Shown piece by piece: positions 28,021-44,400 of a DNA stretch of 44,400 nt. Under the pieces are notes generated by a model. It did no database searches. It was given only the letters and a program-made list of their open reading frames with translations, and was not told the DNA's origin. The DNA is from an uncultured Candidatus Saccharibacteria bacterium. GTDB lineage: Bacteria; Patescibacteriota; Minisyncoccia; Phycocordibacterales; JAACPR01. The first letter of the stretch is position 1; each line of letters begins with the position of its first letter. The DNA lies in contig CAZHOL010000001.1 of NCBI GenBank assembly GCA_964534415.1, forward strand, positions 1 to 44,400, written 5' to 3'. The position numbers and the translations under genes were made by a program.

Positions 28021-29301
28021 TTACTCAATCTCATCCCAAGAAACCAAATTCCAGGATCCTGAAGGTCCTGAGGTAAATTCAATATTCGAAATTCCGGTTT
28101 CGTAATTAATTGTTGTTCCGCCGTCCATTATTATTTTATTTGCCGTAGCCTGTTTAGCAGTTGCTCCGCCAGTAAAATACATCGTTCCATTTTGTGCATT
28201 TAATATTACAGATTCTGTGCCACCTGAAACTTTGATTGCGTAATTTGATCCTGCGCTGCCGCATCCTGTAGTGTTGGGACAGGCGCTAGTTGTTACTGCC
28301 ATAATTTGGCTTCCTGAAGTTCCAGAATTTTGCATTGAGCCACCTTCAATGATTTCGATTTTTCCGTCAGACACAATCACGCCGCTATTCGCACCGTAAT
28401 TCGTTCCGAGTTTAATGACTCCTGCTCCCGAAACTAGAATTTTTCCAGTGACCCATACTGTATCGGTTAAAGTTAGCACAGCACTTTCTGTAACAGTTAA
28501 GTTGCCTTCAATTTTTGCGGGGCCAATTGAGGCGGTTTCAACTCCGTCATAAACTTGATTCCCAGATAGAATATCGCCCGCTTCCGCAACAGATTTCCAC
28601 TCATCGATATTTCCTGCAGATATTGGCATAGGTTCTTCTGATGGATTTGTTCTAGATGTATCGCAAGATTTATTATTGCCTGACCCAACTTTACAAAACA
28701 AATCTCCAAAAATCGTAGAATTTTTTACTTCATTCGCCCAAGCAATTCCGCCAGATGCTCCAACATTCACACCAGAAATTTTTCCGAGAGATGCGCTGGT
28801 TGATGCGGAAATTGCGCTGCCTGTAATTGAGGTGTATCCCGACCCTACAATGTCTCCATTTGAGTATACATTTCCATTAATAGTTGCACCGCCAGACAAT
28901 TCAAAACCTCCTTGTCCAGATTGAATTCCATAATTAAAGCTCACACCAACACCTTGTCTAATTTGCAGAAAAAGATTTCTTTGAAAATCTCCTAACTCAG
29001 AAACGATGCTAATAGTTTTGCCTTCAAATGAATCAGTTGTGTTGATGGTTGCAGTTCCATTCGACAGTGTTAATGTCTCGGCAGAATCTATCGACATGTT
29101 TTTCTTTAGTTTATATAAAGTCTCCTCGCTAGCGCTGTTTGCAATTATGAAAGCTTCCTTTGATTCCAAAAACGCTCGCCCGATTTTGTAACTATTTAAA
29201 ACAGGATTAGAAACTCCATAAATAATAACCATTGAGATTACCAAAAAGAAAATAATATTTGTAATTACCACATATCCTTTTTTGTAGTTTCTTTTATTCA
29301 T
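28021..29301 (-). CDS. Large pilus-associated protein, PilX-like N-terminus plus a Gly/Ser/Thr-rich repetitive domain
   Basis: KKGYVVITNIIFFLVISMVIIYGV N-terminus (no Phe1/Glu5). Degenerate repeats such as GGATINGNVYSNGDIVGSGYTSITGSAISA suggest a beta-helix-like fold. It is the last gene of the pilin operon, with an 8-nt overlap. Confidence 0.65.
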   Translation of the reverse strand: MNKRNYKKGYVVITNIIFFLVISMVIIYGVSNPVLNSYKIGRAFLESKEAFIIANSASEETLYKLKKNMSIDSAETLTLSNGTATINTTDSFEGKTISIVSELGDFQRNLFLQIRQGVGVSFNYGIQSGQGGFELSGGATINGNVYSNGDIVGSGYTSITGSAISASTSASLGKISGVNVGASGGIAWANEVKNSTIFGDLFCKVGSGNNKSCDTSRTNPSEEPMPISAGNIDEWKSVAEAGDILSGNQVYDGVETASIGPAKIEGNLTVTESAVLTLTDTVWVTGKILVSGAGVIKLGTNYGANSGVIVSDGKIEIIEGGSMQNSGTSGSQIMAVTTSACPNTTGCGSAGSNYAIKVSGGTESVILNAQNGTMYFTGGATAKQATANKIIMDGGTTINYETGISNIEFTSGPSGSWNLVSWDEIE

Positions 29302-29806
29302 ATGAATGCCTCAAAATTGCAAATCCGTTAAAACTTTTGGTTTTAGTTTCTTTATCTGCGGTGTAGGTGATGTCGAGCTCAACTTTCATTGCCTGAGAAA
29401 CTGTTGATGTTGCTTGAACAAAGTAGAGACGAGTGACTGTCATGTCGCTCGGAGTTAAAAAATTTTCTTCTCCAGAATCCTCTGTGTATGTCACTCGTCC
29501 CGAAGCAAATGAAAATAATTTCGTAACGGGCGTTTCGTTTTCAAAACTGTTAATGGTCAAAGTACCTTCATCAATGTTCAATTCGCTATTAGAAAGATCA
29601 ATGGAATCGCCAGTTCTAATATCTCTAGTGATTCTGTCTACGATTGTAATACCGACTCGATCAACTCTCGGTTCTACTGCTAATTTTTTATAAATCCCAT
29701 ACATTTGCATTAAAAGATAAACAATTGCACCAAGAACAATAACAATTCCGGCCGTATAGAACAGCATTTCTATCAAACTGAAGCCTTTTTTGTGGTTAAT
29801 TTTCAT
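29294..29806 (-). CDS. Type IV minor pilin/pseudopilin (PilW position)
   Basis: Prepilin signal KKG/FSLIEMLF with Phe+1 and Glu+5, followed by a hydrophobic helix. Confidence 0.8.
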   Translation of the reverse strand: MKINHKKGFSLIEMLFYTAGIVIVLGAIVYLLMQMYGIYKKLAVEPRVDRVGITIVDRITRDIRTGDSIDLSNSELNIDEGTLTINSFENETPVTKLFSFASGRVTYTEDSGEENFLTPSDMTVTRLYFVQATSTVSQAMKVELDITYTADKETKTKSFNGFAILRHSYE

Positions 29807-30269
29807 AGGTATTATGAATTAACATTTCAGTCGTGCGTGTCACCGTGTTTTCTCCTTCAGTCCATGAAACTGTGATAGATGCGAGTAGAGTATTTGGGTC
29901 AATGCTTCCTGAATCTGAAATTACGTCATTCGCATCTCTTTTAACTTCATAAAGTTTAAAAGTTCGGGCATATAAATTTTGATGCAGAATGGCGGTTGAC
30001 GTCGAAACAAAATTTTCTCCGTTCCAATGCAAATAATATGGAGTTTCTTTCTCGAGTGGTGAAATGTTTGCTGACCAACTCTGATCGCGCATAAATTGCA
30101 GAGCCTCGGAAGTTTCTTCAAATAACAATGCTGTCTGCACATTGTGACTATTTTTCATTGAAATATTTATGTAAGCTAAAAGGGAAGAAGTAATCGCTAC
30201 GCCGACGAGCGTAACAATTGCAGATGCGATAATTATTTCAACAACACTGAATCCCTTTTTGTAATTCAC
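29796..30269 (-). CDS. Type IV minor pilin/pseudopilin (PilV position)
   Basis: Prepilin signal KKG/FSVVEIII with Glu+5. Confidence 0.8.
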   Translation of the reverse strand: MNYKKGFSVVEIIIASAIVTLVGVAITSSLLAYINISMKNSHNVQTALLFEETSEALQFMRDQSWSANISPLEKETPYYLHWNGENFVSTSTAILHQNLYARTFKLYEVKRDANDVISDSGSIDPNTLLASITVSWTEGENTVTRTTEMLIHNTYEN

Positions 30270-30273
30270 TTTG

Positions 30274-30744
30274 CTATTCTACCATCGAAACATCTCCCAA
30301 TTTTCCGATTTTCAACCGAATTGAGTTTTCTGAGTCGGTTTTTTCAGTAATTGTAATAGTAATAGGACCGTTATGATTTATGTCGCCCTTCAGTTTTGAA
30401 AAAACGACAACATCGTCCTCACCAGGAATGTCATTTGCGATTTCAAATTTACTGTTGATCTCATTTCTTTCATTACTCTCATTACTTGAGATGTATGATG
30501 AGCCTACAAAATATGTGAAAGAGTCCTCGCTGAATTTTATTCCGTAGTTCTGACCGTTTTTGCCAGTAATTGCATTGCTTCTGGCGAGTTCCAATTTTGA
30601 GACTATGTTGTCGGAGATTGCCTGAATTTCTTTTTCGCTAACTTCGCCACTGAATGACTTGATTGTTACATATGAAATTATTGCAAGAATTGCGATTGAA
30701 AAAAGCAACTCAAGAATTGTGAATCCGCGTTTGTTGAATCTCAT
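30274..30744 (-). CDS. Type IV minor pilin/pseudopilin (FimT/GspH position)
   Basis: Prepilin signal KRG/FTILELLF with Glu+5. Confidence 0.8.
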   Translation of the reverse strand: MRFNKRGFTILELLFSIAILAIISYVTIKSFSGEVSEKEIQAISDNIVSKLELARSNAITGKNGQNYGIKFSEDSFTYFVGSSYISSNESNERNEINSKFEIANDIPGEDDVVVFSKLKGDINHNGPITITITEKTDSENSIRLKIGKLGDVSMVE

Positions 30745-34145: not shown

Positions 34146-35522
34146 TTAGAAATTATCAACGTCTGTGTTGCCGTAATCGCTCTTATCAACATCACGGAAA
34201 GTAGATTTTGTATCGTCGAAATACAATTGAACGACACCAGTCGGACCATTTCTGTGCTTTTCAATCAAAATTTCAGCAATATTTGTTTTGTCTGTTTGCT
34301 CTTTGTAGCGGTCTTCACGGTGAATAAATGCTACAACATCGGCATCTTGCTCGATAGAACCGGAATCTCGGAGGTCGGATAGACGAGGTTTTCCTCCACG
34401 TTGTTCGACAGCACGAGAAAGTTGTGACAAAGCCAACACAGGCACCTCCAATTCACGCGCTAGTGATTTCAGTGAGCGAGAAATTTCTGTGACCTGTTGA
34501 ACGACGTTGTCATTGTTTTTGCTGGTCGTTGGTGCCATGAGTTGTAGGTAGTCGACAACGATTAGACCGAGACCGTGTTCACTTTTTAGTTTTCTTGCAG
34601 TTGATCGCATCGAAATAATATTGTTTGCGGGTTTATCATCGATGTAAATTGGAGCTTCAGACAAAACACCTAAAGTATCTCGTATTCTTTCAAAGTCTGA
34701 TTCGAGCGTCAAATTACCTGTTCGCAAATTCCAAGCGTTAACCTGTGCCTCTGCTGCGAGCATTCTGTCTATTAATTGCTGCGCGGACATTTCGAGAGAG
34801 AAAATACAGACGCCGACTTTTTCGCGCACACCAACATTTCTAGCGATATCGAGGGCGAGGGAAGTCTTACCGACCGATGGGCGCGCCGCTAGAATGATGA
34901 GGTCAGATTTTTGCAATCCGGCGAGCAAATTATCGAGACCTCTGAATCCAGTCTTCACTCCGCGAATCTCGTCTTTGTTTTTGTGGAGATGATCTATTCT
35001 TTCCCATGCGCCACCCAGAGTTTCTTTGATTGAAACGAGTGTCCTAGTATCGTTTTTGTTTGTAACATGAAAAATTTTCTTTTCTGCCTCGTCCAAAATG
35101 TTTTCAATCGCTTGCTCTTCATTGTATCCGAGAGCAGAAATTCTTTCTGAAGCCTCGATCAGACTTCGCAAAGTGTGTTTGCTAACTACAATGTCGGCAT
35201 AATATTTGATGTTGGCTGATGATGGGACAGAGTCGGTGAGCTCGGTCAAATATACGCGACCGCCAGCCTGATCCAATTTATTCGCATTCTTTAATTTTTC
35301 TGAAACAGAAATCAAATCGATTGGCTGTCCCTCAGAATATAGTTTCAAAATGGTTTCGTAAATTGTTTTATGGCGAAGAGAATAAAATACATCAGGACTA
35401 ATTATATCCATAACCTCGTTGATTGCCTCCGGTCTCAACATAATTGAACCGAGCACAGCTTTCTCCGCTTCAATGTTGTGTGGAGGTACTTTTAATGTAT
35501 TTTTTTTCTGTTGTTCGCTCAT
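34146..35522 (-). CDS. dnaB: Replicative DNA helicase DnaB (no intein)
   Basis: PPHNIEAEKAVLGSIML, Walker A AARPSVGKTSLAL, VVDYLQLM, SQLSRAVEQR. Confidence 0.95.
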   Translation of the reverse strand: MSEQQKKNTLKVPPHNIEAEKAVLGSIMLRPEAINEVMDIISPDVFYSLRHKTIYETILKLYSEGQPIDLISVSEKLKNANKLDQAGGRVYLTELTDSVPSSANIKYYADIVVSKHTLRSLIEASERISALGYNEEQAIENILDEAEKKIFHVTNKNDTRTLVSIKETLGGAWERIDHLHKNKDEIRGVKTGFRGLDNLLAGLQKSDLIILAARPSVGKTSLALDIARNVGVREKVGVCIFSLEMSAQQLIDRMLAAEAQVNAWNLRTGNLTLESDFERIRDTLGVLSEAPIYIDDKPANNIISMRSTARKLKSEHGLGLIVVDYLQLMAPTTSKNNDNVVQQVTEISRSLKSLARELEVPVLALSQLSRAVEQRGGKPRLSDLRDSGSIEQDADVVAFIHREDRYKEQTDKTNIAEILIEKHRNGPTGVVQLYFDDTKSTFRDVDKSDYGNTDVDNF

Positions 35523-35612
35523 ATTTTTATATCAATAGAATAGCACAAAAACATTTATGAAGTTTTTCTAAAAATCTCACAAAATGTGGATGAAAAGGGG
35601 ATTAGTCTCGTC

Positions 35613-37010
35613 CTACTTCCTGGCTTTAATTTCAAAGCCATTTTGGCCGTCTATGATATCAAATCCCAGAACCTTTGCATCTTCACGTAATTTATCAGAA
35701 GTTGTAAAGTCCCGATTTTTACGAGCCAGTTCGCGTTTGTGTGCAATTTCAACAACTTCATCAGGAACAACAGAATCTTTCAATTCACGAGACATTTTTT
35801 CGAAACCAATTCCCAAAACCTGGTCCAGAATTAAAATAGTTTTTTTCTTTTTCGACGCAGAAATTTTCTCATCGCGCATCATTTCCCATAGCACAGCGAT
35901 TGCTGAAGCGGTGTTCAAGTTGTCAGAAAGGGCGGCGTTGAATTTTTCAATTGTTTTTTTGTCGGCGCTTTCAAAAAACTTTGTTTTTGTATTTTTAAGC
36001 AAACGCAAAATTTTCTCTACTGCACTTTTCGATGCTTCGAGAGCTTCAATTGTTAAATTTTTCTGCGCACCGTAGTTTGTCGTCAATAACCAATATCGAA
36101 AAATTGCAGGAGAAATGTTTTTTGAAATTAATTCATCGACGTACATAACATTGCCGTCAGACTTTGATAATTTTGTTCCATTCAACATCAAATGATTGAA
36201 GTGTATCCAGTAATTTGCGAGAGGTTTTTTAAAAGCTCCAACAGATTGTGCAATTTCGTTATTGTGATGAACTGGAATGTGTTCAATTCCGCCGATGTGA
36301 ATATCAAATGGCTGACCAAGTAATTTTCGAGACATCGCAGAACATTCAATATGCCATCCTGGAAATCCTACGCCCCAAGGAGACTGCCACTCCTGCTGCC
36401 TCTTTTCGTTTGGATTTGAGAACTTCCAAAGCGCAAAGTCGGTCACATTTTTTTTCTCACTGTTGAACTCCACGCGTGCACCTTCTTTTAAACCTCCTAC
36501 ATCAATATTACCGAGCTTTCCATACTCTGGAAATTTGCTTGTATCAAAATATATTCCATCGCTTGTCCTATATGTGAATTCATCTCGTTCTAGAATTTTA
36601 ATAATTTCAATTTGTTCAGGAATATTTTCCGTTGCTTTTGGAAATGAAATCGAGTCGACATCCACATTAACCGATCGCAAGTCGCTCATGAATTGCGCAG
36701 TTACTTCCTCGGCGATTTCTCGGGCGCTACGATTATTTTTTTTGGAAGCTTTCTCCATTTTATCTTCGCCATCGTCTCCATCACTCACCAAATGACCGAC
36801 GTCTGTGATATTTATAACCAACTTTGTCTTATTCCCGAGGTAATCAAAAAATCTTTTCAAAGTGTCGGAATAAATGAAAGCGCTAATGTTTCCAAGATGC
36901 TGTTTTGAATATACAGTTGGCCCACAGTGATATATTCCAACGCGGTTTTTTCTGATCGGAATGAATTCCTCTTTCGTGCCAGAAAGCGTGTTCTTTAAGA
37001 AAATTTTCAT
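35613..37010 (-). CDS. cysS: Cysteinyl-tRNA synthetase
   Basis: YHCGPTVYSKQHLGN (HIGH region), WHIECSAM, KLSKS. Confidence 0.93.
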   Translation of the reverse strand: MKIFLKNTLSGTKEEFIPIRKNRVGIYHCGPTVYSKQHLGNISAFIYSDTLKRFFDYLGNKTKLVINITDVGHLVSDGDDGEDKMEKASKKNNRSAREIAEEVTAQFMSDLRSVNVDVDSISFPKATENIPEQIEIIKILERDEFTYRTSDGIYFDTSKFPEYGKLGNIDVGGLKEGARVEFNSEKKNVTDFALWKFSNPNEKRQQEWQSPWGVGFPGWHIECSAMSRKLLGQPFDIHIGGIEHIPVHHNNEIAQSVGAFKKPLANYWIHFNHLMLNGTKLSKSDGNVMYVDELISKNISPAIFRYWLLTTNYGAQKNLTIEALEASKSAVEKILRLLKNTKTKFFESADKKTIEKFNAALSDNLNTASAIAVLWEMMRDEKISASKKKKTILILDQVLGIGFEKMSRELKDSVVPDEVVEIAHKRELARKNRDFTTSDKLREDAKVLGFDIIDGQNGFEIKARK

Positions 37011-37011
37011 A

Positions 37012-37935
37012 CTATAACCATTTATTATACTTGATCACACCAAATGTAAATAGGGAGAAAATCGCCATAATTAAAATTATGATTCCAAAATCATTGGCCG
37101 AACCAACAATCGGCATATTAACGGTGTTCATGTTAAAAATGTTTGCAATCAAAGACAGTGGCAACACCAAAAAAGTGATAACTGTGAGAGTTTTCATCAC
37201 CTCATTTTGTTTTGTGGATAACAGAGAATTGTTTGTTTCTCGCAACTCGTCCAGATATTCTTTGACAGAAGTTATCTCGTTTTTAACTTTCAAATATTCA
37301 CCGATAATTGTTTTTGCATAATATTTGAATTCTGGTCCAAAAAAACTATCGCTAGCGTTCAATAAATTCTTCAAAACATCGTGATGCATAGAAAATGCAG
37401 ATTTAAAGTTGATCAATTGTCTATTCAAATGAGAAAATTCCCAAACCATTTTTCTTTCATTTCCTGAAAAAATGTTGTCCTCGGCGGTTTTAATTTTTTC
37501 TTTCAGAGCCTCTAATTTGTTGTACAGATTGAGATAAAGATGTTTCAGCATATAGAAGAATATGAAGCCACCGTTCATGGACATGTTTGATTTGTCTAGA
37601 ATAGAATCCACCTCAAAAACTTTGCTGAATTCCAAAATGGCACTGTATGGTTCGTATCGATTTGTGATCAAATAATCCTTGCCAATTACGAAATCAATTT
37701 CATGAAATCTATTTTCATTCGCCGAATCAATTTTGTCGCTGATAATTGGGAAGTGAAGTATCAAATAAATATTATCATCGTGCACATCAACGTATGGTCT
37801 GTATGATGGTGTAAGCAAGTCGCTAGCAATGTTAGGGTCGAGAGAATATTTTTCTGCAATTTGCCTAATTTCTTTTGCAGAAGGGTTCTCGAGATCGACC
37901 CACACTGTATTTTTGTGTTTGTAATTTGAAATCAT
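37012..37935 (-). CDS. corA: CorA-family divalent cation transporter with NMN in place of GMN
   Basis: CorA architecture: a cytoplasmic domain and two C-terminal TM segments, with LPLSLIANIFNMNTVNMP aligning to the canonical (Y/F)GMNFxxMP loop. Confidence 0.8.
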   Translation of the reverse strand: MISNYKHKNTVWVDLENPSAKEIRQIAEKYSLDPNIASDLLTPSYRPYVDVHDDNIYLILHFPIISDKIDSANENRFHEIDFVIGKDYLITNRYEPYSAILEFSKVFEVDSILDKSNMSMNGGFIFFYMLKHLYLNLYNKLEALKEKIKTAEDNIFSGNERKMVWEFSHLNRQLINFKSAFSMHHDVLKNLLNASDSFFGPEFKYYAKTIIGEYLKVKNEITSVKEYLDELRETNNSLLSTKQNEVMKTLTVITFLVLPLSLIANIFNMNTVNMPIVGSANDFGIIILIMAIFSLFTFGVIKYNKWL

Positions 37936-38011
37936 TCAGAAATATTGTACCACAGTATATTTATGTAAACTAAAATTGACCCACAAGTTATAATTTGAGA
38001 TAATTTCGGTA

Positions 38012-39220
38012 ATGAAATTTAACTTTAAAAATATCTATTTGTCAGTTGCTAGCATTTTGCTAATCGTAATAGTTTTTTTCGGAGGTTATTTTACAGCTAA
38101 TATAAAATCTTTTGATTCAAATATTTCTTTTACAGAAATAGTTAATGCATCTGGTCAGGCCGACCTAACTAATTTTTGGAAAGTTTGGAATTTGTTGGAT
38201 GAGAAATTTATTTCATCGGCCACTTCTTCAAAAATATCAAACGAGGAAAAAATAAATGGTGCAATCTCGGGTTTAGTGGATTCACTAGGAGATCCATACA
38301 CAGTATTCTTTCCACCAAAGGAAAAGAAATCTTTTGATGACAGCTTGAAAGGGAATTTGGAAGGAGTTGGTATGGAGGTTGGGCTAAAGGAGGGTGTAAT
38401 TTCTGTAATTGCTCCGCTCAAAGGTTCTCCTGCAGAGAGGGCTGGTATCAAGCCTGGCGATATTGTTGCTGAAATTGATGGTGAAACTACTTTAAATATG
38501 ACTGTTGAAGTTGCCGTTTCAAAAATCAGAGGCAAGGCTGGTAGCACTGTGGCTCTGACAATTATTCGTGAAAATGAAAAAGAGCCACTGAAAATTAATA
38601 TTGTGCGTGAAATAATAAAAATTCCTAATCTAAAGACTGAATTGCGCGAGGATGGAATTTTTGTCATCTCGTTGTATAACTTTGGTAATAGTGCTTCTGC
38701 AGAATTTAGGAAAGCTTTGCGCGAGTTTGTTTTGTCAAAGAAATCTAGATTAATTCTCGATTTGCGAGGAAATCCTGGAGGATATTTAGAATCTGCAGTT
38801 GACATTGCTAGTTGGTTTTTACCTTCTGGAAAGGTAATTGTTCAAGAAGATTTCGGAAAAGAGGTGAAAAACTTTCGCGCAAACGGACAAAATGTTTTTA
38901 ATGATAAATTAAAAATGGTTGTGTTGATAGACAAAGGATCTGCGAGTGCTTCAGAAATTCTTGCCGGAGCGCTTCAGGAACACAAAATAGCTAAACTAGT
39001 TGGTACAAAATCATACGGTAAGGGTTCTGTGCAGGAATTGATAGATATTGGCGACGATACTTCACTCAAAGTGACAATCGCGCGATGGTTAACTCCAACA
39101 GGAAAATCTATTTCTGAAGGAGGATTAACACCTGATTATCTTGTGGACAGGGCTCCAGAAAAAATTGAACTTGAAGACTTCCAAATGAGCGAAGCTGTCC
39201 GTATTTTGAAATCTATGTAG
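38012..39220 (+). CDS. ctpA: S41 carboxy-terminal processing protease
   Basis: PDZ GIKPGDIVAEIDGE, DLRGNPGGYL, GSASASEILAGAL, N-terminal TM segment. Confidence 0.9.
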   Translation: MKFNFKNIYLSVASILLIVIVFFGGYFTANIKSFDSNISFTEIVNASGQADLTNFWKVWNLLDEKFISSATSSKISNEEKINGAISGLVDSLGDPYTVFFPPKEKKSFDDSLKGNLEGVGMEVGLKEGVISVIAPLKGSPAERAGIKPGDIVAEIDGETTLNMTVEVAVSKIRGKAGSTVALTIIRENEKEPLKINIVREIIKIPNLKTELREDGIFVISLYNFGNSASAEFRKALREFVLSKKSRLILDLRGNPGGYLESAVDIASWFLPSGKVIVQEDFGKEVKNFRANGQNVFNDKLKMVVLIDKGSASASEILAGALQEHKIAKLVGTKSYGKGSVQELIDIGDDTSLKVTIARWLTPTGKSISEGGLTPDYLVDRAPEKIELEDFQMSEAVRILKSM

Positions 39221-39239
39221 ATTTGTGTAGAATGGTGGC

Positions 39240-39683
39240 ATGAAAGTCTTTTTATTGAAAAACGTATCAAAAATTGGTCAGAAAGGGGATATAAAGGATG
39301 TGAAGGAGGGCTATGTTCGCAACATGCTTTTGCCTCGTGGTTTGGCTAAAATTGCAACGCCTGCGGATATCGCCGGCGCGGAGAAAGCTTCAAAAATGTC
39401 CAAGGAACACGAGGAGGCACGAACTCGAGAAATTTACAAAATGTTTGACGAAGTTAAGGGCAAGGTCGTCACCATCTCAGAGAAAGCCAGTGAAAAAGGG
39501 CATCTATTCGCCCAGATCAGCAGAGAAAAAATTCTCTCCGCAGCCAGCGCACAGTTAGGGACAAAAATCGAAGATTCATGGCTGATTGCGCCCGAGCACT
39601 TGAAAGAGGTTGGGCAACATAAAATCGAATTGCATTTTAAGAATAGGAAGAGTGAGTTTGTGTTAGAGGTTAAAGCTTTGTAA
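39240..39683 (+). CDS. rplI: 50S ribosomal protein L9
   Basis: MKVFLLKNVSKIGQKGDIKDVKEGYVRNMLLPRGLA. Confidence 0.93.
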   Translation: MKVFLLKNVSKIGQKGDIKDVKEGYVRNMLLPRGLAKIATPADIAGAEKASKMSKEHEEARTREIYKMFDEVKGKVVTISEKASEKGHLFAQISREKILSAASAQLGTKIEDSWLIAPEHLKEVGQHKIELHFKNRKSEFVLEVKAL

Positions 39684-39686
39684 AAA

Positions 39687-39718
39687 TAAAAAACCACTTC
39701 GAGATGAAGTGGTTTTTT
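39687..39718. terminator. Bidirectional terminator between the convergent rplI and rpmA genes
   Basis: A-run, CCACTTC (39694-39700) GAGAT GAAGTGG (39706-39712), then T6. Confidence 0.8.
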
Positions 39719-39727
39719 AATGTTAAT

Positions 39728-40000
39728 TTATTTAACCGACACCTCTACAAATCGCTGAATTTTACCATCAAAGTTAGTCTTTCTTCGGCTTCCGAATTTC
39801 ACGATACCGTCTTTGATTGCGTAGATTGTGTGATCCTTGCCGATAGCTGTATTTGTGCCAGGGAGAATTTTGCTTCCTCGCTGTCGGATGATGATTGAAC
39901 CAACCTGGGCTCGCTCTCCGTCATGGAGTTTAGTACCCAAATACTTTGGATTTGAATCTGTAAGGTTTTTGGCTGTTCCGGCGGCTTTAACTGTTGACAT
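39728..40000 (-). CDS. rpmA: 50S ribosomal protein L27
   Basis: GTAKNLTDSNPKYLGTKLHDGE...GSIIIRQRGSKILPGTN.GKDHTIYA. Confidence 0.92.
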   Translation of the reverse strand: MSTVKAAGTAKNLTDSNPKYLGTKLHDGERAQVGSIIIRQRGSKILPGTNTAIGKDHTIYAIKDGIVKFGSRRKTNFDGKIQRFVEVSVK

Positions 40001-40063
40001 ATTTTTGTAATTAAATCTTTATCTAAATTTTATCTGCTTGTAATATAATATAATGCGTTAGGT

Positions 40064-40432
40064 ATGAGTCTAGAACAAATCAAAGAAAAAATCAAGCCCT
40101 TTTCGCCCATCTTGAGTTGGGCTTTAAATATAGCAATTTTCCTTGCGTTTATTTCGCTTTTAATTGCGCTTTTCCAGGTTAGAGCCATCAATGCTCGAAA
40201 AGAGGGAATAGAGGTAATACGAGGCGATTTTGAAGCAAATTTTGCCATTTCTACGGCCAAAACAGGTGACACCGCGGACAAAATTGTGGCATCCAAAACC
40301 GGCACCAGGTATTATTTCTCAAATTGTTCCGGTGTACAGGCCATCAAGCCGGAAAATAGGGTATTTTTCGAGTCAATAGAGGCCGCCGAGAGGGCAGGTT
40401 TGACACTTGCAAAAAATTGCAAAAAACCCTAA
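40064..40432 (+). CDS. Membrane-anchored protein with a small C-terminal Cys-containing domain (YYFxNC...FFESxEAAxxAG...NC)
   Basis: One TM segment (ILSWALNIAIFLAFISLLIALF). The C-terminal pattern resembles the small Ada-like / sunset-type domains common in such genomes. This functional guess is weak. Confidence 0.6.
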   Translation: MSLEQIKEKIKPFSPILSWALNIAIFLAFISLLIALFQVRAINARKEGIEVIRGDFEANFAISTAKTGDTADKIVASKTGTRYYFSNCSGVQAIKPENRVFFESIEAAERAGLTLAKNCKKP

Positions 40433-40472
40433 AAATGAGCATTTATGGCTTGAAATATGGGTATTTTGGCTA

Positions 40473-40572
40473 TTGACTCCAAAATAGTGGGTGTGCTATA
40501 ATAGACCTAACTCGGACGTTAGAACGTTCGAGCTTTTTTGTTTCAGGCCTTCTAAAAAAGATCACCTGAAAC
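40473..40572 (+). promoter_or_regulatory. Extended -10 promoter followed immediately by a terminator hairpin and a second hairpin (possible leader or attenuator of the SLT gene)
   Basis: TTGACT 40473-40478, TGcTATAAT 40494-40502. Then CTCGGACGT (40511-40519) / ACGTTCGAG (40524-40532) followed by CTTTTTT, and GTTTCAGG (40540-40547) / CCTGAAAC (40565-40572). Confidence 0.45.
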
Positions 40573-40640
40573 CTGCGTACGAGTAATATGGATGCAAGCG
40601 CAGATTAACATTAATCAATAGGCTTATTATTCAATTAGCG

Positions 40641-41096
40641 ATGGGAATTGCCATGCTTGCAGCGACAATTACGAACCAAGTATCAGGCACAGAACAGACA
40701 CAAGCGAATACAAACACTGAATCTACAGTAATTGTTGAAACGGAAATCAATTCAGAACATTCAGTCAAAAAGTCAAAAACAACTAAAGAAACAGTTGAGG
40801 AATACTTCCAAGACATTCCAATTCTAGTCGATGTTGCTTTTTGTGAGTCTAGATTCAGACAAACTAATCCTGATGGTTCCGTCCTTCGTGGCGAAGCCAA
40901 CAGAGATGACGTTGGTGTGATGCAGATTAATGAAAAGTATCACCTAGAGACTTCAAAAAAGCTCGGATTAGATATTCACACTCTAGAAGGAAACATGGCT
41001 TACGGACGATATCTCTATGAGAAATTCGGAACCGATCCATGGGAATATTCTTCAAAATGTTGGAAGAAACATCGTGAAGTCGCTTTGGCGAAATAA
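40641..41096 (+). CDS. Lytic transglycosylase (SLT/lysozyme-like) domain protein
   Basis: VAFCESRFRQ (catalytic Glu-Ser), DVGVMQINEKYH, and YGRYLYEKFG downstream. The N-terminal start is uncertain (40641 or 40653). Confidence 0.7.
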   Translation: MGIAMLAATITNQVSGTEQTQANTNTESTVIVETEINSEHSVKKSKTTKETVEEYFQDIPILVDVAFCESRFRQTNPDGSVLRGEANRDDVGVMQINEKYHLETSKKLGLDIHTLEGNMAYGRYLYEKFGTDPWEYSSKCWKKHREVALAK

Positions 41097-41111
41097 CGGA
41101 TGTTTGCAGAG

Positions 41112-41138
41112 ACTGCCTGAGAGGGCGGTTTTTGTTTT
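41112..41138 (+). terminator. Terminator of the SLT gene
   Basis: ACTGCC (41112-41117) / GGCGGT (41124-41129) running into TTTTTGTTTT. Confidence 0.55.
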
Positions 41139-41165
41139 AAGAAAAACCTCCGGGTGGGGGAGGTT
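41138..41165 (-). terminator. Terminator of the 64-aa minus-strand gene
   Basis: AACCTCC (41145-41151) / GGAGGTT (41159-41165), followed on the minus strand by TTTTCTT. Confidence 0.55.
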
Positions 41166-41184
41166 GTGGTGCGGTGAGTTTTGA

Positions 41185-41379
41185 TCATTGTGTCTTGTTA
41201 TCGGGCAAACTGAATCCGATTCTCGGAGGGCGGATTTTTGTAACGCTGCTCGTTTTGGGAATAAGGAGATTTGCAAGTGACTTGTGTTTTTCAGGATTGT
41301 CATCAAGATATTCGCGCCAGGCTTTGTCAAAATCTACACCACTGCCTTTTTTAGGCTTAGCTGTATTAATTGTCGTCAT
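41185..41379 (-). CDS. Hypothetical 64-aa basic protein
   Basis: Internal Met of the track ORF 41185..41454. GGAGAG precedes ATG 41379. It has its own promoter TTGACT-17-TAAATT (41454-41426, minus strand) and terminator. Sequence: MTTINTAKPKKGSGVDFDKAWREYLDDNPEKHKSL... Confidence 0.5.
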   Translation of the reverse strand: MTTINTAKPKKGSGVDFDKAWREYLDDNPEKHKSLANLLIPKTSSVTKIRPPRIGFSLPDNKTQ

Positions 41380-41425
41380 TGGAGTACTCTCCGGCTTGGG
41401 GTTTGTGCTGAAATTTCCTGTTAAA

Positions 41426-41493
41426 AATTTACCTTGTGAGGAAGTTAAAGTCAAATATTTTATGTTTGACTTTCTTTATATAAAGTATAGTGT
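41426..41493. promoter_or_regulatory. Divergent promoter pair whose back-to-back -35 boxes form a perfect 9-nt inverted repeat
   Basis: AAAGTCAAA (41447-41455), a 9-nt spacer, then TTTGACTTT (41465-41473). Plus strand: TTGACT 41466-41471 and TAGTGT 41488-41493. Minus strand: TTGACT 41454-41449 and TAAATT 41431-41426. Confidence 0.5.
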
Positions 41494-41586
41494 TTTACAC
41501 AGATCATCCTCTAAAACCGGAGCCATTTGTTCTGGTTGCCTACGCATAGTGTGTAGGCGCGTTGGGGATGAAAGGAGAGTCCGAAC

Positions 41587-42261
41587 ATGAGCAAAAATAA
41601 AATAAAAAGTCGGGTATCACTGCACGAGATTTTGTTTGGTGATCTAGGTGAGAGAGGGTTGTGTCTCGAAACTACAATTCGAGATCCCAATATCTCACGT
41701 GAGGAAGCCATATCTATGAATAAATGCGGGCGTTTCACTCGGAGCTATTACCACAGGTATTGCCACCATTACTTTTTGGGGGAAGTTAAATTTTTGCAAA
41801 TCAATCAGTCCGATAAGTGTATGATAACGATCAGACTGGCCGCCGGTTACGGCGGTATGATTCCTTTCGTTGAGGAGATGGCAAAAAATGAGCTGACAAA
41901 GCTTGAACAGGATGTCGGCTTGAAGCGCGCAGAAAACTTTGGCCGTCACATCGTTAATAGTTTGCCAGACTTTAACTTCGAAATTTCAATGAGAAGAGAC
42001 GAGCCATTTTTGGCCATGGCATCACGAGTCGTAGTCGAAATTTGTATTGCTCTCGGTGTCGACATCTCAAAGAAGTCGGATCGGGGTGATGGTTCTTACG
42101 AAATTGAACAAGCTCTCAAGAATGTAAAAACTAGTAGAGAACAACAGGTTTTGTATCGCGGCAAATGGATGTCTGAGGAAGATTTTCGGGCGAAGTTCAT
42201 TCAAGACAACATCAAGGAGGCTCTCTTGGCTCATGGTGCCGAGGTCACGAAGAAGACTTGA
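41587..42261 (+). CDS. Hypothetical 224-aa protein (orphan)
   Basis: AAGGAGAG upstream of the ATG, and a 5' UTR of about 90 nt containing hairpin CCTACGCA-TAG-TGTGTAGG. No known motif, signal peptide or TM segment. Confidence 0.65.
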   Translation: MSKNKIKSRVSLHEILFGDLGERGLCLETTIRDPNISREEAISMNKCGRFTRSYYHRYCHHYFLGEVKFLQINQSDKCMITIRLAAGYGGMIPFVEEMAKNELTKLEQDVGLKRAENFGRHIVNSLPDFNFEISMRRDEPFLAMASRVVVEICIALGVDISKKSDRGDGSYEIEQALKNVKTSREQQVLYRGKWMSEEDFRAKFIQDNIKEALLAHGAEVTKKT

Positions 42262-42282
42262 TACGTGTTCGTTTGGTTGTGG

Positions 42283-42319
42283 AGAGGGGTGCTAACTTTG
42301 GCACTCCTCTTTTCTTTTT
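42283..42319 (+). terminator. Intrinsic terminator
   Basis: AGAGGGGTGC (42283-42292) / GCACTCCTCT (42301-42310) followed by TTTCTTTTT. Confidence 0.7.
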
Positions 42320-42346
42320 CTGATTACTAACAATTGATTTGATTAA

Positions 42347-42374
42347 AGCCCCGCCGGAATCTTCCGGCGGGGCT
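42347..42374. terminator. Strong GC hairpin between convergent genes
   Basis: AGCCCCGCCGG (42347-42357) / CCGGCGGGGCT (42364-42374), an 11-bp stem. On the minus strand it is followed by TTTAATC. Confidence 0.6.
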
Positions 42375-42402
42375 TAGCTATTTTCAAATTATGACTCATG
42401 TC

Positions 42403-43089
42403 TCAATCAAGCTGGATAGCATTAGGCTTCGGTAATAAAGTCCGTGCACTATGTTCAACATGGACCTCTCTATTCTCCATTACCCCCTTACTTATCAATA
42501 GAGCTTCGTGCGCCATCGCGCAAACCTCTTTTAGGGTTGGCGAATGAGAAAGTCTGAGGTGCATCGAAAAGCTTTCAAACTTGTTGTCTATCACAAATTG
42601 CATAAAATCACGAATCTCAGGATCAAGCCAGTCGACCTCGAGTGCCTTCTCCATAAAGCTGATCAATGACCACGTTCTTTTGAATGACACGCGGCAGTAT
42701 ATTTTATTGACTGCAAATGGATTTTCATATTTCGGATTGTTTGAATCAAGTGGTCTAATAGTAAACACATTGCTCACACTCACGATGCTTGTGTCCATTT
42801 TGTCCATGGACTTCATCTCTTCGAGCAAAATCTCACAGATTTCTTTGGTGGTCGGTTCCTTTGAGAGGGAAAGCGTGCCACCATATGAAAAATGTTTGCT
42901 CGTCAAAATGTAGTCGAGAAAACCTTTGATGAATGCGTCAATTCCTTCAATTAAACGGATTTCGTTGGCGATTTTCACCCAATCATCTGTTTGAGTGAAC
43001 TCGACTCTCCACCAGCTCTTGCCAGCGGGTGCCGTATCTTTTATTCCTTCTGCTGGCACCAGTTTGAATAGCTGTGATTTGGCTTTCAT
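42403..43089 (-). CDS. Hypothetical 228-aa protein made of two homologous ~100-aa halves
   Basis: AGGAG lies 7 nt upstream. Promoter TTGACT-17-TAGAGT (43161-43133, minus strand). Internal repeat: WRVEF...TLSLSKEPTTKEICEIL versus CRVSF...HLRLSHSPTLKEVCAMA. Confidence 0.65.
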   Translation of the reverse strand: MKAKSQLFKLVPAEGIKDTAPAGKSWWRVEFTQTDDWVKIANEIRLIEGIDAFIKGFLDYILTSKHFSYGGTLSLSKEPTTKEICEILLEEMKSMDKMDTSIVSVSNVFTIRPLDSNNPKYENPFAVNKIYCRVSFKRTWSLISFMEKALEVDWLDPEIRDFMQFVIDNKFESFSMHLRLSHSPTLKEVCAMAHEALLISKGVMENREVHVEHSARTLLPKPNAIQLD

Positions 43090-43162
43090 TATGGGACTCC
43101 TGTATCTGGTTTAAAATAGCATTTCCTTTTCAACTCTATCTTTTTGACTGTTTGAAGTCAAT

Positions 43163-43206
43163 AAAAAAACCGGACGGCCAGAGCTGTTTGCTGTTGGCTG
43201 TCCGGT
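43163..43206 (-). terminator. Intrinsic terminator of the 191-aa gene
   Basis: Long hairpin ACCGGACGGCCAG... / ...CTGTTGGCTGTCCGGT (43169-43206). On the minus strand it is followed by T7. Confidence 0.7.
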
Positions 43207-43242
43207 ACTATTGTCGATTGGCGATTTACTAGTCAAATAACA

Positions 43243-43818
43243 TCAGCTGACCTGATCGGTGACGTCCTCCCAGTCCAGGGTCGTCGCTCGAGTGCCTTCT
43301 CCGCAAAATTCGCGAGAGAAAAGCAACTTGTATGCTTCAATGACACTCATCCCGTCATAGGGACTATCTGGTGAGTTGTAAAACTTGTCTTTCAGCTCAA
43401 TGTACAAGCCCATATAGAGCGTAATCCATGTATTGGGTATCAACTCAGGCACACAATCACAGAAAGTTTGAATCATTGTACGCATCAATTCGCCAAGAGT
43501 GCTGGTAACGGTCAGACCGTGTCTGATATCGGTCTGAGTCGCTTTATCACCGGTAAACATGTTGGGGTCAGCGACCAAGCACATCATGGAGTGAACTTTT
43601 GGTATCCAAATGCCACTCTCGAACTTCATCTCGGAATAGGTATGGAACAGATCGCAGATCAATGTGTGCTGATGTTTGTTCAACATGAACGGTAACGTTC
43701 TGCCTGAATAGGTCAGATGCACCGGCCAGTATTCTTCCGATTCAAATGGAGTTGAAATGATGCCAGCTTCGTAAAGTTTCGTACGCAACATAACATTGAC
43801 ATCGCTCGTGTTGCTCAT
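43243..43818 (-). CDS. Hypothetical 191-aa protein (orphan)
   Basis: GAGG upstream of the ATG. Promoter TTGACC-17-TAGAGT (43888-43860, minus strand). It has its own terminator. No known motif. Confidence 0.65.
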   Translation of the reverse strand: MSNTSDVNVMLRTKLYEAGIISTPFESEEYWPVHLTYSGRTLPFMLNKHQHTLICDLFHTYSEMKFESGIWIPKVHSMMCLVADPNMFTGDKATQTDIRHGLTVTSTLGELMRTMIQTFCDCVPELIPNTWITLYMGLYIELKDKFYNSPDSPYDGMSVIEAYKLLFSREFCGEGTRATTLDWEDVTDQVS

Positions 43819-43920
43819 GACAGAACCTCGGTTAGTTGTTGTATTGTACTTCTGCGATTACTCTATACCCGTAGGTTGCTGTGGTCAATAGGGGAGAATT
43901 CACTGTTTTAGCAGTTTTCT

Positions 43921-44043
43921 AAGTTTGAAAAAGCGACCAAATGATTCTTGCGAAAATATTTCAAGAATAATTTATTCTAGTAAGAGAATTTTTTTTCGAA
44001 TAATTTTAATAAAGGAGAGATTGATAAAGTTTGAAAAAGCGAC
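43921..44043 (+). repeat. 17-nt perfect direct repeat AAGTTTGAAAAAGCGAC, two copies 106 bp apart in an AT-rich intergenic region
   Basis: Copies at 43921-43937 and 44027-44043. Small inverted repeats (ATTCTTG/CAAGAAT, ATTCT/AGAAT) lie between them. Confidence 0.85.
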
Positions 44044-44257
44044 TGTGGATAACTTAATAGGGCTAGGGCCTTTATTTATATAGTATGTCGCACAATATAT
44101 CTTTGCGGTAACATCTATAAATAAGATAAGGCCAGAATCGACTACATTAATCCTGGCCAACTATCTTTGCATTATTGTGTTTAGATAAATTTAATTTAAT
44201 TAATTATATTTATTGACTATAACCATCCATAACTTCCCCCGAGACCATTAGAGATAT

Positions 44258-44400
44258 CTACGCCGCGAATTGCTGCAAAAATGCCCAAACCCATTTAACC
44301 ACTCCAGTGAGAAAGTTTGCTGCGATCAAGATAAGCTTTCCAAGAAATGCAAATAGTGGATAGAATAATCCTTCCCAAATCTTTCCGGCATTTAATCCGA
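44258..44400 (-). CDS. C-terminal 46 codons of a hydrophobic protein, 5' part outside the window
   Basis: My reverse translation is GLNAGKIWEGLFYPLFAFLGKLILIAANFLTGVVKWVWAFLQQFAA with stop TAG (44260-44258). The frame is open to the window edge. No function can be assigned. Confidence 0.4.
   Translation of the reverse strand, partial: GLNAGKIWEGLFYPLFAFLGKLILIAANFLTGVVKWVWAFLQQFAA

What the first reader, a model, noticed from the sequence alone, without database searches (positions are those of the whole stretch)
41138..43890. Four-gene orphan islet of independently transcribed genes with no recognisable domains: candidate uncharacterised system
Four genes lie between the SLT-like gene and the AT-rich gap at 43900. 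They encode a 64-aa basic protein (minus strand), a 224-aa protein (plus strand), a 228-aa two-repeat protein (minus strand) and a 191-aa protein (minus strand). Each has a near-consensus TTGAC(T/C)-17-TA(G/A)NNT promoter, an SD site and a strong GC hairpin terminator (41145-41165, 42283-42319, 42347-42374, 43169-43206). None has a signal peptide, a TM segment or any motif I can name. By eye the region is more GC-rich and uses different codons from the ribosomal and aaRS genes nearby. It sits next to a 17-nt direct repeat pair (43921/44027). Clustering of orphans, the divergent regulatory architecture and atypical composition are the usual hallmarks of an acquired functional module such as a defence, toxin/immunity or host-interaction system. 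There is no integrase or other mobility gene.
Basis: partly seen in the sequence, partly recalled or inferred. Interest (0 to 1): 0.65.

Follow-up and report, generated by a model that had tools for sequence, protein, structure and literature searches.

The report
Orphan gene cassettes in variable slot
Four real but function-unknown genes, found only in one small group of freshwater Paceibacteria (CPR bacteria), sit as separate self-contained units in a chromosomal position whose content changes between relatives; they are not one inherited four-part system.

Summary
The four ORFs exist as described: A 64 aa, B 224 aa, C 228 aa with an internal duplication, D 191 aa. Promoter-like sites, SD sites and hairpin terminators are present. 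None hits Pfam, NCBIfam, PHROGs, PADLOC or PDB. They are real genes: relatives show dN/dS of 0.05-0.17. They are extreme orphans. An exhaustive HMMER search of 1.84 billion cluster representatives found one true relative of B, and word-indexed searches of 5.8 billion proteins found two each for C and D. The organism is a freshwater Paceibacteria bacterium.

No other genome carries all four. Relatives lack A, carry a clean D deletion scar, add B paralogues (B2, B3) or a fifth family (E), carry a one-repeat C, or have only A and D. The genes occupy the interval between an SLT-like gene and the M23-murG-ftsW cluster. That synteny holds in 47 Paceibacteria species, where the interval ranges from 175 nt to 9.7 kb with miscellaneous content. 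No mobility gene, phage or plasmid relative, or donor lineage was found. Only D is compositionally unusual.

Verdict: autonomous lineage-specific orphan cassettes in a class-wide variable slot. Function is unknown, and B with C is the only recurrent pairing.

The parts
41145..41165 (-). Terminator hairpin plus U-run of gene A
   Evidence: 7-bp stem, z -2.4
41185..41379 (-). Gene A: 64-aa basic protein (pI 9.8) with conserved C-terminal IGF-x-LP motif. Relatives in L006 (63 aa, 58% identity) and L010 (87 aa). Absent from L004.
41426..41454 (-). Promoter-like site of A (TTGACT-17-TAAATT). Its leader is conserved in L006 and L010.
41138..41458 (.). 321-bp A cassette. It is present or absent as a unit and is bounded by short TTTT(T/A)TGTTT microhomology. 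It is missing in L004.
41466..41493 (+). Promoter-like site of B (TTGACT-16-TAGTGT or TTGACT-14-TATAGT), invariant in window, L004 and L006
41494..41586 (+). Conserved, structured 5' leader of B1 with a closing stem and two hairpins. The SD GGAGAG lies just downstream.
   Evidence: -38.3 kcal/mol, z -3.65; three sequences: one compensatory pair, six one-sided compatible changes
41587..42261 (+). Gene B (subfamily B1): 224 aa, member of a lineage-specific B superfamily (B1, B2, B3). Only 38-39% identical to the B1 genes of L004 and L006, although the flanks are 87-93% identical at the nucleotide level.
42281..42312 (+). Terminator of B (14-bp hairpin plus U-rich tail)
   Evidence: z -4.6
42346..42375 (.). 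Perfect GC-rich palindromic hairpin, the terminator of C (bidirectional). The same element lies between D and B2 in L008.
   Evidence: z -6.0
42403..43089 (-). Gene C: 228 aa, two tandem ~80-aa beta-alpha-alpha-beta-alpha repeats. 86% identical in L004 and 59% in L006. L009 has a one-repeat version.
   Evidence: dN/dS 0.15
43133..43161 (-). Promoter-like site of C (TTGACT-17-TAGAGT). It is part of a conserved terminator-promoter joint that other genomes reuse.
43169..43206 (-). Terminator of D (hairpin plus U7). The same hairpin follows gene E in L006, L008 and L009. The D deletion in L004 ends inside it.
   Evidence: (z -3.0)
43243..43818 (-). Gene D: 191 aa, acidic (pI 4.8), with invariant His34, Cys55, His76, Cys80, His100 and Cys120. 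It has the highest GC3 in the window. Relatives in L008 (78%), L009 (63%) and L010 (50%). Deleted in L004.
   Evidence: (dN/dS 0.10)
43860..43888 (-). Promoter-like site of D (TTGACC-17-TAGAGT). The -35 context CCCCTATTGAC is conserved in five loci.
43921..44043 (.). Pair of exact 17-nt direct repeats, AAGTTTGAAAAAGCGAC, at 43921-43937 and 44027-44043
   Evidence: Partly conserved in L004 and L008.
44034..44110 (-). Non-coding block at the slot's far edge, with long invariant stretches in five loci and a ~10-nt variable centre, upstream of whichever gene (D or E) comes first
   Evidence: weak RNA folding; no Rfam hit

Best explanation
The region is the local filling of a variable chromosomal slot in a freshwater Paceibacteria (Patescibacteria/CPR) genome. 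The slot lies between an SLT-like lytic-transglycosylase gene and the 71-aa membrane protein/M23 peptidase/murG/ftsW cluster.

Shown:
- In this genus-level lineage the slot is filled with lineage-restricted orphan genes of at least five families: A, B (with paralogues B1, B2, B3), C, D and E.
- Each gene carries its own promoter-like site, SD site and hairpin terminator, so each looks like an autonomous cassette.
- The proteins have no signal peptide and no convincing TM segment (hydropathy scan only).
- They are under purifying selection, so they are functional genes.
- Individual cassettes come and go between close relatives, so they are individually dispensable and not mutually dependent.

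Inferred mechanisms of turnover:
- Tandem duplication and divergence: B1/B2/B3 in tandem, and the internal duplication that made two-repeat C from a one-repeat form.
- Deletion or insertion of whole cassettes at short microhomologies and at the reused terminator-promoter joints.
- Replacement of the B1 coding sequence by a very divergent allele under an unchanged promoter and leader.

Inferred on function: the products act singly, or at most as a B-C pair, which is the only recurrent adjacency (always tail-to-tail). They probably serve accessory, strain-level roles such as conflict with phage or a host cell, or niche-specific regulation. No biochemical activity can be assigned.
For: Real genes.
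- dN/dS is 0.15 for C (window versus L004), 0.10 for D (window versus L008), 0.14 for B1 (L004 versus L006) and 0.05 for B2 (L004 versus L006).

Orphans.
- B has one true relative among 1.84 billion cluster representatives. C and D have two relatives each among 5.8 billion proteins.
- No hit in Pfam, NCBIfam, PHROGs, PADLOC or PDB.
- Foldseek of the C model found nothing in PDB or BFVD.

Autonomy.
- Each gene has promoter and terminator signals.

Variable content.
- tblastn and blastp maps of L004-L010 show different gene sets.
- The blastn map shows sharp indel boundaries: the A cassette is absent from L004, D is cleanly deleted there, and the B1 coding sequence is diverged between flanks that are 87-93% identical.
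- The terminator-promoter joints are reused after D or after E.

Paralogy.
- B1 and B2 are related (HHalign 97%, E 3e-11), and so are the two C repeats (92%, E 5e-7).

Class-wide slot.
- The order S41-L9-L27-SLT ... M23-murG-ftsW is kept in 47 species. The interval between SLT and M23 ranges from 175 nt to 9.7 kb.
- Its content in other species is heterogeneous.
- Among the 80 other Paceibacteria loci retrieved around SLT homologues, only L010 carries any of the five families, namely A and D.

Not mobile.
- No relatives in IMG/VR, GenBank phages or PLSDB.
- No tRNA or integrase lies nearby.

Population level.
- In four freshwater runs the SNP bubbles fall in C, D and the gap beyond D. The preceding 17-kb contig has none.
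Against: - Function is not shown for any gene.
- There are no transcript data, so promoters, terminators and independent transcription are sequence predictions only.
- Only six distinct locus types are known, and several come from 2-5 kb contigs. Absences in L008 and L009 are partly unknowable.
- C and D were searched only with the word-indexed tool, which missed the 50%-identical D of L010. Their true spread may therefore be wider.
- D's high GC3 could still mean a foreign origin for that one gene.
- B-family genes and C are adjacent in four of five B-containing loci, so a two-gene B-C functional unit is not excluded.
Confidence: 0.7

Rival explanations
1. One reading: the four genes are one horizontally acquired functional module, such as a defence, toxin/immunity or host-interaction system whose parts work together.
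For: - Orphans are clustered, each with strong regulatory signals.
- GC is somewhat raised, and D's GC3 is the highest in the window.
- The content is accessory and strain-variable.
- B1 alleles are very divergent under a conserved promoter, a pattern often seen at conflict loci.
Against: - No other genome holds all four. A, D, B2 and E vary independently.
- The genes are separate transcription units, and B and C converge.
- No PADLOC, Pfam or PHROGs hit.
- No donor lineage, phage or plasmid relative.
- No mobility gene, tRNA or att-like flanks.
- All family members found lie at the same chromosomal position, in loci whose shared flanking genes or DNA are close to the window's. This fits vertical descent with local turnover.
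Confidence: 0.08
2. A two-gene B-C unit is the functional core, for example an effector with a partner or immunity protein. A, D and E are unrelated passengers in the same slot.
For: - A B-family gene lies tail-to-tail next to C, or to the one-repeat C, in the window, L004, L006 and L009.
- They share a bidirectional hairpin terminator.
- B diversifies into paralogues and divergent alleles while C stays at 59-86% identity.
Against: - In L008 B2 is adjacent to D with no C between them.
- B and C are convergently and separately transcribed, which is unlike known toxin-antitoxin or toxin-immunity operons.
- Neither has a recognisable toxin, nuclease, protease or immunity fold.
- L010 has neither gene.
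Confidence: 0.15
3. The genes are remnants of a decayed prophage or other mobile element. They resemble phage 'morons', which are self-contained genes with their own promoter and terminator and a slightly different GC content.
For: - Each gene has a promoter-plus-terminator architecture.
- GC is mildly higher.
- Genomic islands and prophages are known to be enriched in novel genes (PMC1285063 abstract, listed).
Against: - No relative in IMG/VR, GenBank phages, PHROGs or plasmids.
- No integrase, tRNA target or att-like flanking repeats.
- The flanking genes are core genes kept in the same order across the class.
Confidence: 0.05
4. The genes are lineage-specific accessory factors of cell-envelope or division machinery. 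They were recruited because of their position between the SLT-like gene and the mraY-ftsW-murG-M23 cluster.
For: - The neighbourhood is entirely peptidoglycan and division genes.
- In other species the same slot often carries Mur ligase, alanine racemase and FemAB genes.
Against: - None of the four proteins has a signal peptide or a convincing TM segment.
- They are individually dispensable between close relatives.
- They show no similarity to any envelope enzyme family.
Confidence: 0.07

Closest known systems
Flexible genomic islets or hypervariable regions at fixed chromosomal positions in streamlined aquatic bacteria, for example the SAR11/Pelagibacter hypervariable regions (concept from my own knowledge; related papers are listed)
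   Same: - A fixed position between conserved core genes.
- Content differs between close relatives and within one population.
- Rich in genes without homologues.
- No mobility genes.
   Different: - Very small: about 3 kb and four genes.
- The content is cytoplasmic orphan proteins, not the surface-glycan or transport genes typical of those islands.
- The families appear to have diversified in place by duplication. There is no evidence they were imported.
Phage 'morons': autonomous promoter-gene-terminator units (concept from my own knowledge)
   Same: Each gene is flanked by its own promoter-like site and an intrinsic terminator, and GC is mildly shifted.
   Different: The genes are not inside a prophage. 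They have no viral homologues. The flanks are core chromosomal genes.
Defence islands and defence hotspots
   Same: A variable hotspot with rapid gain and loss, and divergent alleles (B1) under conserved regulatory DNA.
   Different: - No hit to 5027 PADLOC models.
- No multi-gene operon.
- The same slot in other Paceibacteria mostly carries metabolic, cell-wall or unknown genes, with only singleton defence-model hits.
Taxonomically restricted (orphan) gene families expanded by tandem duplication
   Same: - B1, B2 and B3 are tandem paralogues.
- C arose by internal duplication, and a one-repeat relative survives in L009.
- All families are confined to one narrow lineage.
   Different: None of note. 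This is the category the evidence fits best, although the origin of the founding genes is unknown.

Membership tests
Co-inherited multi-gene functional system (defence or toxin-immunity module) | The components co-occur across genomes. | tested here: not met
   No other locus has A, B, C and D together. L004 lacks A and D, L006 lacks D, and L010 has only A and D.
Co-inherited multi-gene functional system (defence or toxin-immunity module) | Operon or otherwise coupled transcription | tested here: not met
   Each gene has its own promoter-like site and terminator. A and B diverge, and B and C converge. This rests on sequence prediction only, because no RNA data exist.
Co-inherited multi-gene functional system (defence or toxin-immunity module) | At least one recognisable effector or sensor domain | tested here: not met
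   PADLOC, Pfam, NCBIfam, PHROGs and PDB searches gave no significant hit. Foldseek of the C model gave none.
Horizontally acquired genomic island | Composition clearly different from the host genome | tested here: inconclusive
   The region is 43.5% GC against 39.7% for the window. B and C lie within the range of housekeeping genes. Only D is extreme (GC3 0.576). Codon-usage distances are not outlying.
Horizontally acquired genomic island | Mobility genes, a tRNA target or flanking att-like repeats | tested here: not met
   The only tRNA is at 20777. No integrase or transposase lies in the neighbourhood. The repeats found are short and lie inside the slot; none flanks it on both sides.
Horizontally acquired genomic island | Homologues in a plausible donor: another lineage, a phage or a plasmid | tested here: not met
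   Searches found none. C and D were not searched exhaustively.
Variable chromosomal slot (flexible genomic islet) | Conserved core genes flank it on both sides in many relatives. | tested here: met
   S41-L9-L27-(Ada-like)-SLT on one side and M23-murG-ftsW on the other in 47 GTDB species.
Variable chromosomal slot (flexible genomic islet) | Content and length differ between relatives. | tested here: met
   The interval ranges from 175 nt to 9.7 kb with unrelated content. Six different gene sets occur in the close relatives.
Variable chromosomal slot (flexible genomic islet) | Polymorphism within natural populations | tested here: inconclusive
   Logan contigs of four runs show SNP bubbles in C and D and graph paths that skip 76 nt of D and 109 nt of the gap. 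The joints rest on k-1 overlaps of contigs, not on reads.
Phage moron | An autonomous promoter-gene-terminator unit | tested here: met
   (prediction only).
Phage moron | Embedded in a prophage or phage genome | tested here: not met
   The flanks are core genes. No viral relatives were found.
Type II toxin-antitoxin pair | Two small genes co-transcribed in one operon, one of which has a known toxin fold | tested here: not met
   B and C are 224 and 228 aa, convergent, with separate promoters. Neither matches a toxin or antitoxin family.

The most novel reading that the evidence does not exclude
The B, C, D, E and A families could be the parts list of a new Paceibacteria-specific conflict system, either anti-phage or directed at the host cell of this presumably episymbiotic bacterium. 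Under this reading cassettes are swapped and alleles diversified (B1 alleles only 38% identical) beneath a conserved, structured leader RNA and conserved terminator-promoter joints. That would make it a small shufflable locus analogous to immunity-gene arrays.
Probability: 0.12. Interest if true: 0.6.

Novelty: new member of a known kind. Interest (0 to 1): 0.3.

Why it matters
As it stands this is an ordinary feature of a CPR genome: hypothetical genes in a variable spot. It has modest value in three ways.
- It is a clean, small example of how gene content turns over in a very reduced genome. Whole promoter-gene-terminator cassettes are gained and lost, tandem paralogues arise, an internal duplication has occurred, and an allele has been replaced under conserved regulatory DNA.
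- It shows that the SLT-to-M23 interval is a hotspot of gene-content variation across the class Paceibacteria.
- It supplies four or five protein families with essentially no relatives among billions of sequences. These could serve as test cases for orphan-gene origin or for structure-based annotation.

It does not currently open a new mechanism.

Tried and rejected
- **Domain and profile searches.** All four proteins and the aligned families were run against Pfam, NCBIfam, PHROGs, PADLOC and PDB sequences. Nothing was significant.
- **Exhaustive HMMER search with B.** The only extra hit was a 1757-aa ankyrin-repeat protein (E 2e-5, summed over six repeats). I rejected it as repeat-inflated noise.
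- **AF2 of C** (three-sequence alignment). pLDDT was 68.6. Foldseek against PDB and BFVD gave a best E of 0.2 and TM below 0.25, so there is no match.
- **AF2 of D.** pLDDT was 42, which is unusable.
- **IMG/VR scans** for B, C and D found none.
- **JGI metagenome scans** for B and D found none.
- **tblastn** against GenBank phages and PLSDB plasmids found none.
- **Rfam** on the window and, at a lenient threshold, on the region found only a tRNA-Glu at 20777 and sub-threshold noise.
- **Conserved non-coding block at 44034-44110.** I considered a small RNA. Folding is weak (z -1.6 to +1.0; consensus -4.5 kcal/mol), so I rejected a stable RNA.
- **Cross-family comparison.** I tested whether B, C, D and E are distant paralogues of one another. 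HHalign probabilities were below 4%, so I rejected this.
- **RNA-seq runs** for expression evidence: none available.
- **The 138-aa plus-strand ORF at 41174-41590** as the real gene instead of A. I rejected it for two reasons. The equivalent ORF in L010 runs on into the D region. The minus-strand ORF keeps its start, SD, promoter and terminator in three genomes, and substitutions are enriched at its third codon positions (16/15/25). This evidence is weak.

Full report
**1. What is in the sequence**

- A, 41185-41379, minus strand, 64 aa. It starts at an internal ATG of an 89-aa TTG ORF.
- B, 41587-42261, plus strand, 224 aa.
- C, 42403-43089, minus strand, 228 aa.
- D, 43243-43818, minus strand, 191 aa.

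The consensus scan finds TTGACT-17-TAAATT upstream of A, TTGACT-17-TAGAGT upstream of C and TTGACC-17-TAGAGT upstream of D. For B the best reading is TTGACT-16-TAGTGT or TTGACT-14-TATAGT. The scan did not report it, but the stretch is invariant in three genomes.

All four terminator hairpins are real. Fold z-scores are -2.4 for A, -4.6 for B, -6.0 for C and -3.0 for D. The region has 16 promoter-like sites against 9.8 +/- 3.0 in shuffles, and 10 terminator-like sites against 3.9 +/- 2.8.

None of the proteins has a convincing hydrophobic segment. B has a borderline one at residues 140-158 that contains Arg and Glu.

The 17-nt direct repeat at 43921 and 44027 is exact.

**2. Composition**

The region is 43.5% GC and the window is 39.7%. 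B and C have GC3 of 0.478, against a window mean of 0.385 (SD 0.069). Several housekeeping genes are as high. D has GC3 of 0.576, the highest of 56 ORFs. Codon-usage distances of 0.92-1.14 fall inside the window's range of 0.63-1.43. The claimed atypical composition therefore holds clearly only for D.

**3. The organism and the neighbourhood**

Identical DNA occurs in four freshwater metagenome runs. A scan of GTDB species genomes used the neighbouring SLT-like protein as anchor. It returned 80 loci, nearly all labelled Parcubacteria, Paceibacteria, Taylorbacteria or Nomurabacteria, or carrying the generic 'Saccharibacteria' label of one MAG project. The window is therefore from a freshwater Paceibacteria (CPR/Patescibacteria) bacterium.

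The rest of the window is mainly housekeeping. It includes DnaB, CysRS, CorA, S41 peptidase, L9, L27, MreB, MreC, PBP2, GreA, further aminoacyl-tRNA synthetases and MraZ. Many other genes there also lack a Pfam hit. Absence of domains is thus common in this genome and not special to the islet.

**4. They are real genes and extreme orphans**

- No significant hit in Pfam, NCBIfam, PHROGs, PADLOC or PDB sequences, whether searched with single proteins or family alignments.
- The word-indexed search of 5.8 billion proteins gave two relatives for C (86% and 59% identity), two for D beyond the near-identical copy (78% and 63%) and none for B.
- The exhaustive HMMER search of 1.84 billion cluster representatives with B gave one true relative (40% identity). 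It also gave a repeat-inflated hit to an ankyrin protein, which I discard.
- dN/dS against relatives is 0.15 for C, 0.10 for D, 0.14 for B1 (L004 versus L006) and 0.05 for B2 (L004 versus L006). These are protein-coding genes under purifying selection.
- For A, the minus-strand ORF is intact in the window, L006 and L010, with a conserved C-terminal IGF-x-LP motif. Substitutions are modestly enriched at third codon positions. Gene callers disagree on the strand.

**5. Family structure**

- B belongs to a superfamily with at least three subfamilies. B1 is the window's gene, with the 235-aa gene of L006 and the L004 gene called as 271 aa (about 240 aa from the likely start). B2 comprises the 225-237-aa genes of L004, L006, L008 and L009. 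B3 is a partial gene in L009. B1 and B2 align over their full length (HHalign 97% probability, E 3e-11).
- C is an internal duplication of a unit of about 80 aa (HHalign 92%, E 5e-7). The AF2 model has pLDDT 68.6 and shows two beta-alpha-alpha-beta-alpha units. L009 carries a one-repeat version that is 46% identical to the first repeat.
- A fifth family, E, is about 155 aa with a very basic N-terminus. It occurs in L006, L008 and L009 but not in the window.
- B, C, D and E are not detectably related to each other.
- Foldseek of the C model found nothing in PDB or BFVD. The D model was unusable, with pLDDT 42.

**6. The co-occurrence test**

Contigs that carry relatives give six distinct arrangements of the same chromosomal position.

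| Locus | Genes in the slot |
|---|---|
| Window | A, B1, C, D |
| L004 / L005 | B1 (38% identical), B2, C (86%); no A; D reduced to 27 codons |
| L006 / L007 | A (58%), B1 (39%), B2, C (59%), E; no D |
| L008 (2.1 kb) | E, D (78%), B2 |
| L009 (4 kb) | D (63%), E, one-repeat C, B2, B3 |
| L010 (closest GTDB species) | A-like and D (50%) only |

No genome other than the window's own strain has all four genes.

The nucleotide map of the window against L004 shows sharp boundaries:
- 39684-41137 is 91% identical.
- The 321-bp A cassette, 41138-41458, is absent. It is bounded by TTTT(T/A)TGTTT microhomology.
- 41459-41594, the B promoter and leader, is 93% identical.
- The B coding sequence has diverged to 38% amino-acid identity.
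- 42337-43187, covering C, is 87% identical.
- 43188-43747, most of D and its terminator, is cleanly deleted.
- 43748-44386 is 74% identical.

The intergenic joints are reused. The hairpin CTGGCCGTCCGG followed by seven T, then the TTGACT...TAGAGT promoter of C, follows D in the window. It follows E in L006 and L009. In L008 the same hairpin follows E but leads into D. The L004 deletion ends inside the hairpin. The perfect palindrome at 42346-42375 lies between D and B2 in L008.

**7. The slot is variable across the class**

The gene order S41-L9-L27-(Ada-like)-SLT on one side and M23-murG-ftsW on the other is kept in 47 GTDB species. The interval between SLT and M23 ranges from 175 nt to 9.7 kb.

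I scanned 117 ORFs from those intervals. They gave a mixed bag, and a defence model was hit only by single proteins:
- Mur ligases
- asparagine synthase
- alanine racemase
- FemAB
- an IMS-type polymerase
- glycosyl hydrolases
- many ORFs with no hit at all

Profiles of A, B, C, D and E were searched against all six-frame ORFs of the 80 loci. They find only the A and D of L010. The position is therefore a general hotspot of gene-content change in Paceibacteria, and the orphan families are confined to one narrow lineage.

**8. No sign of mobility or a donor**

- No relatives in IMG/VR, JGI metagenome contigs, GenBank phages or PLSDB plasmids.
- The only tRNA is 20 kb away.
- No integrase or transposase lies in the neighbourhood.

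**9. Population data**

I laid Logan contigs of the four freshwater runs on 40000-44400. One invariant contig runs from about 14.5 kb upstream of position 40000 (part of a 17-kb contig) to 42698. Alternative contigs (SNP bubbles) then appear in C and D. C has five differences, three of them non-synonymous, in the linker between the repeats. The main D bubble has seven differences, two of them non-synonymous, and one run shows two further synonymous differences in D.

Graph paths also skip 76 nt of D (43675-43750, a frameshift) in three runs, and 109 nt between the 17-nt repeats in one run. These joints rest on k-1 overlaps between contigs, so I treat them as tentative. No RNA run is available.

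**10. Interpretation**

The evidence supports autonomous, lineage-restricted orphan cassettes in a variable chromosomal slot. They turn over in three ways:
- Tandem duplication.
- Deletion or insertion of whole cassettes.
- Allele replacement.

The evidence does not support one acquired four-part system. The only recurrent association is a B-family gene lying tail-to-tail with C, seen in four of five B-containing loci. I keep this as a minority hypothesis (0.15). No function can be assigned. The genes' dispensability, rapid turnover and divergent B1 alleles are compatible with an accessory or conflict role, but nothing tested here points to a specific activity.

The best available description is a new example of a known kind of feature, a flexible genomic islet that carries taxonomically restricted genes. 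Interest is low to moderate.

Noticed in passing
window 44034-44110 (minus-strand orientation): A non-coding block of about 75 nt in the AT-rich gap has long invariant stretches in all five loci that cover it (window, L004, L006, L008, L009), around a ~10-nt variable centre. This holds whichever gene follows, D or E. A promoter-like TTGACC-16-TATATT lies at its start in L004. It folds weakly as RNA and has no Rfam match. It may be a protein-binding regulatory site or the fixed edge of the slot.
   Followed up: partly
window 41494-41586 (+): The 5' leader of B1 is 90-95% identical in three genomes, while the coding sequence that follows is only 38% identical. It folds into a closing stem with two hairpins (-38.3 kcal/mol, z -3.65). 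In three sequences there are one compensatory and six one-sided compatible changes. It is a possible cis-regulatory RNA that is not in Rfam.
   Followed up: partly
window 40473-40540 (+): The best promoter match in the region is TTGACT-18-TATAAT with an upstream TG. It is followed within 10 nt by a hairpin plus T-run (40511-40540), about 100 nt before the SLT-like gene starts. This could be a very short transcript or an attenuator-type leader.
   Followed up: no
window 42637-42652 and 43287-43302: A 16-nt exact direct repeat, CTCGAGTGCCTTCTCC, lies inside C and inside D in different reading frames. By my rough estimate about 0.004 such matches are expected by chance in 4 kb. It may be coincidence or a trace of recombination between cassettes.
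   Followed up: no
window 41174-41590 (+) versus 41185-41379 (-): Public gene calls disagree on the A locus. One contig has the 64-aa minus-strand gene (L002) and another has a 138-aa plus-strand ORF that overlaps the start of B (L003). Conservation favours the minus-strand gene.
   Followed up: yes
window 39683-39728 versus L004 13905-15296 and L010 8126-9031: Relatives carry one or two extra genes between L9 and L27. Both have a 290-301-aa protein with N- and C-terminal hydrophobic segments, and L004 also has a GNAT acetyltransferase. The window lacks these. Small indels of one or two genes are therefore not limited to the slot.
   Followed up: partly
window 44261-44400 (-), running off the end: This is the C-terminal part of a conserved 71-aa hydrophobic protein (81-83% identity to the copies in L004 and L009). 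In relatives that protein lies between the slot and the M23 peptidase gene.
   Followed up: partly
window 34307-41137 versus L004: Synonymous divergence from L004 is very uneven. dS is 0.2-0.4 for L27, the Ada-like gene and the SLT-like gene, but about 0.75 for L9 and above 1 or saturated for CysRS, CorA and S41. This suggests a mosaic of recombined segments between the two lineages.
   Followed up: no
window 28021-30744 (-): A run of four genes (426, 170, 157 and 156 aa) has no Pfam hit except a weak N_methyl (type IV pilin-like) match on the 156-aa product. It is a probable pilin or pseudopilin cluster and another group of poorly annotated genes in the window.
   Followed up: no
loci L001, L090, L091: Sequences identical to the window also sit in three NCBI assemblies (GCA_013573075.1, GCA_013558375.1, GCA_013565695.1). 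Their contig accession numbers run to about one million and above. These look like very large, fragmented assemblies, presumably metagenomic or contaminated, and not genomes of this organism.
   Followed up: no
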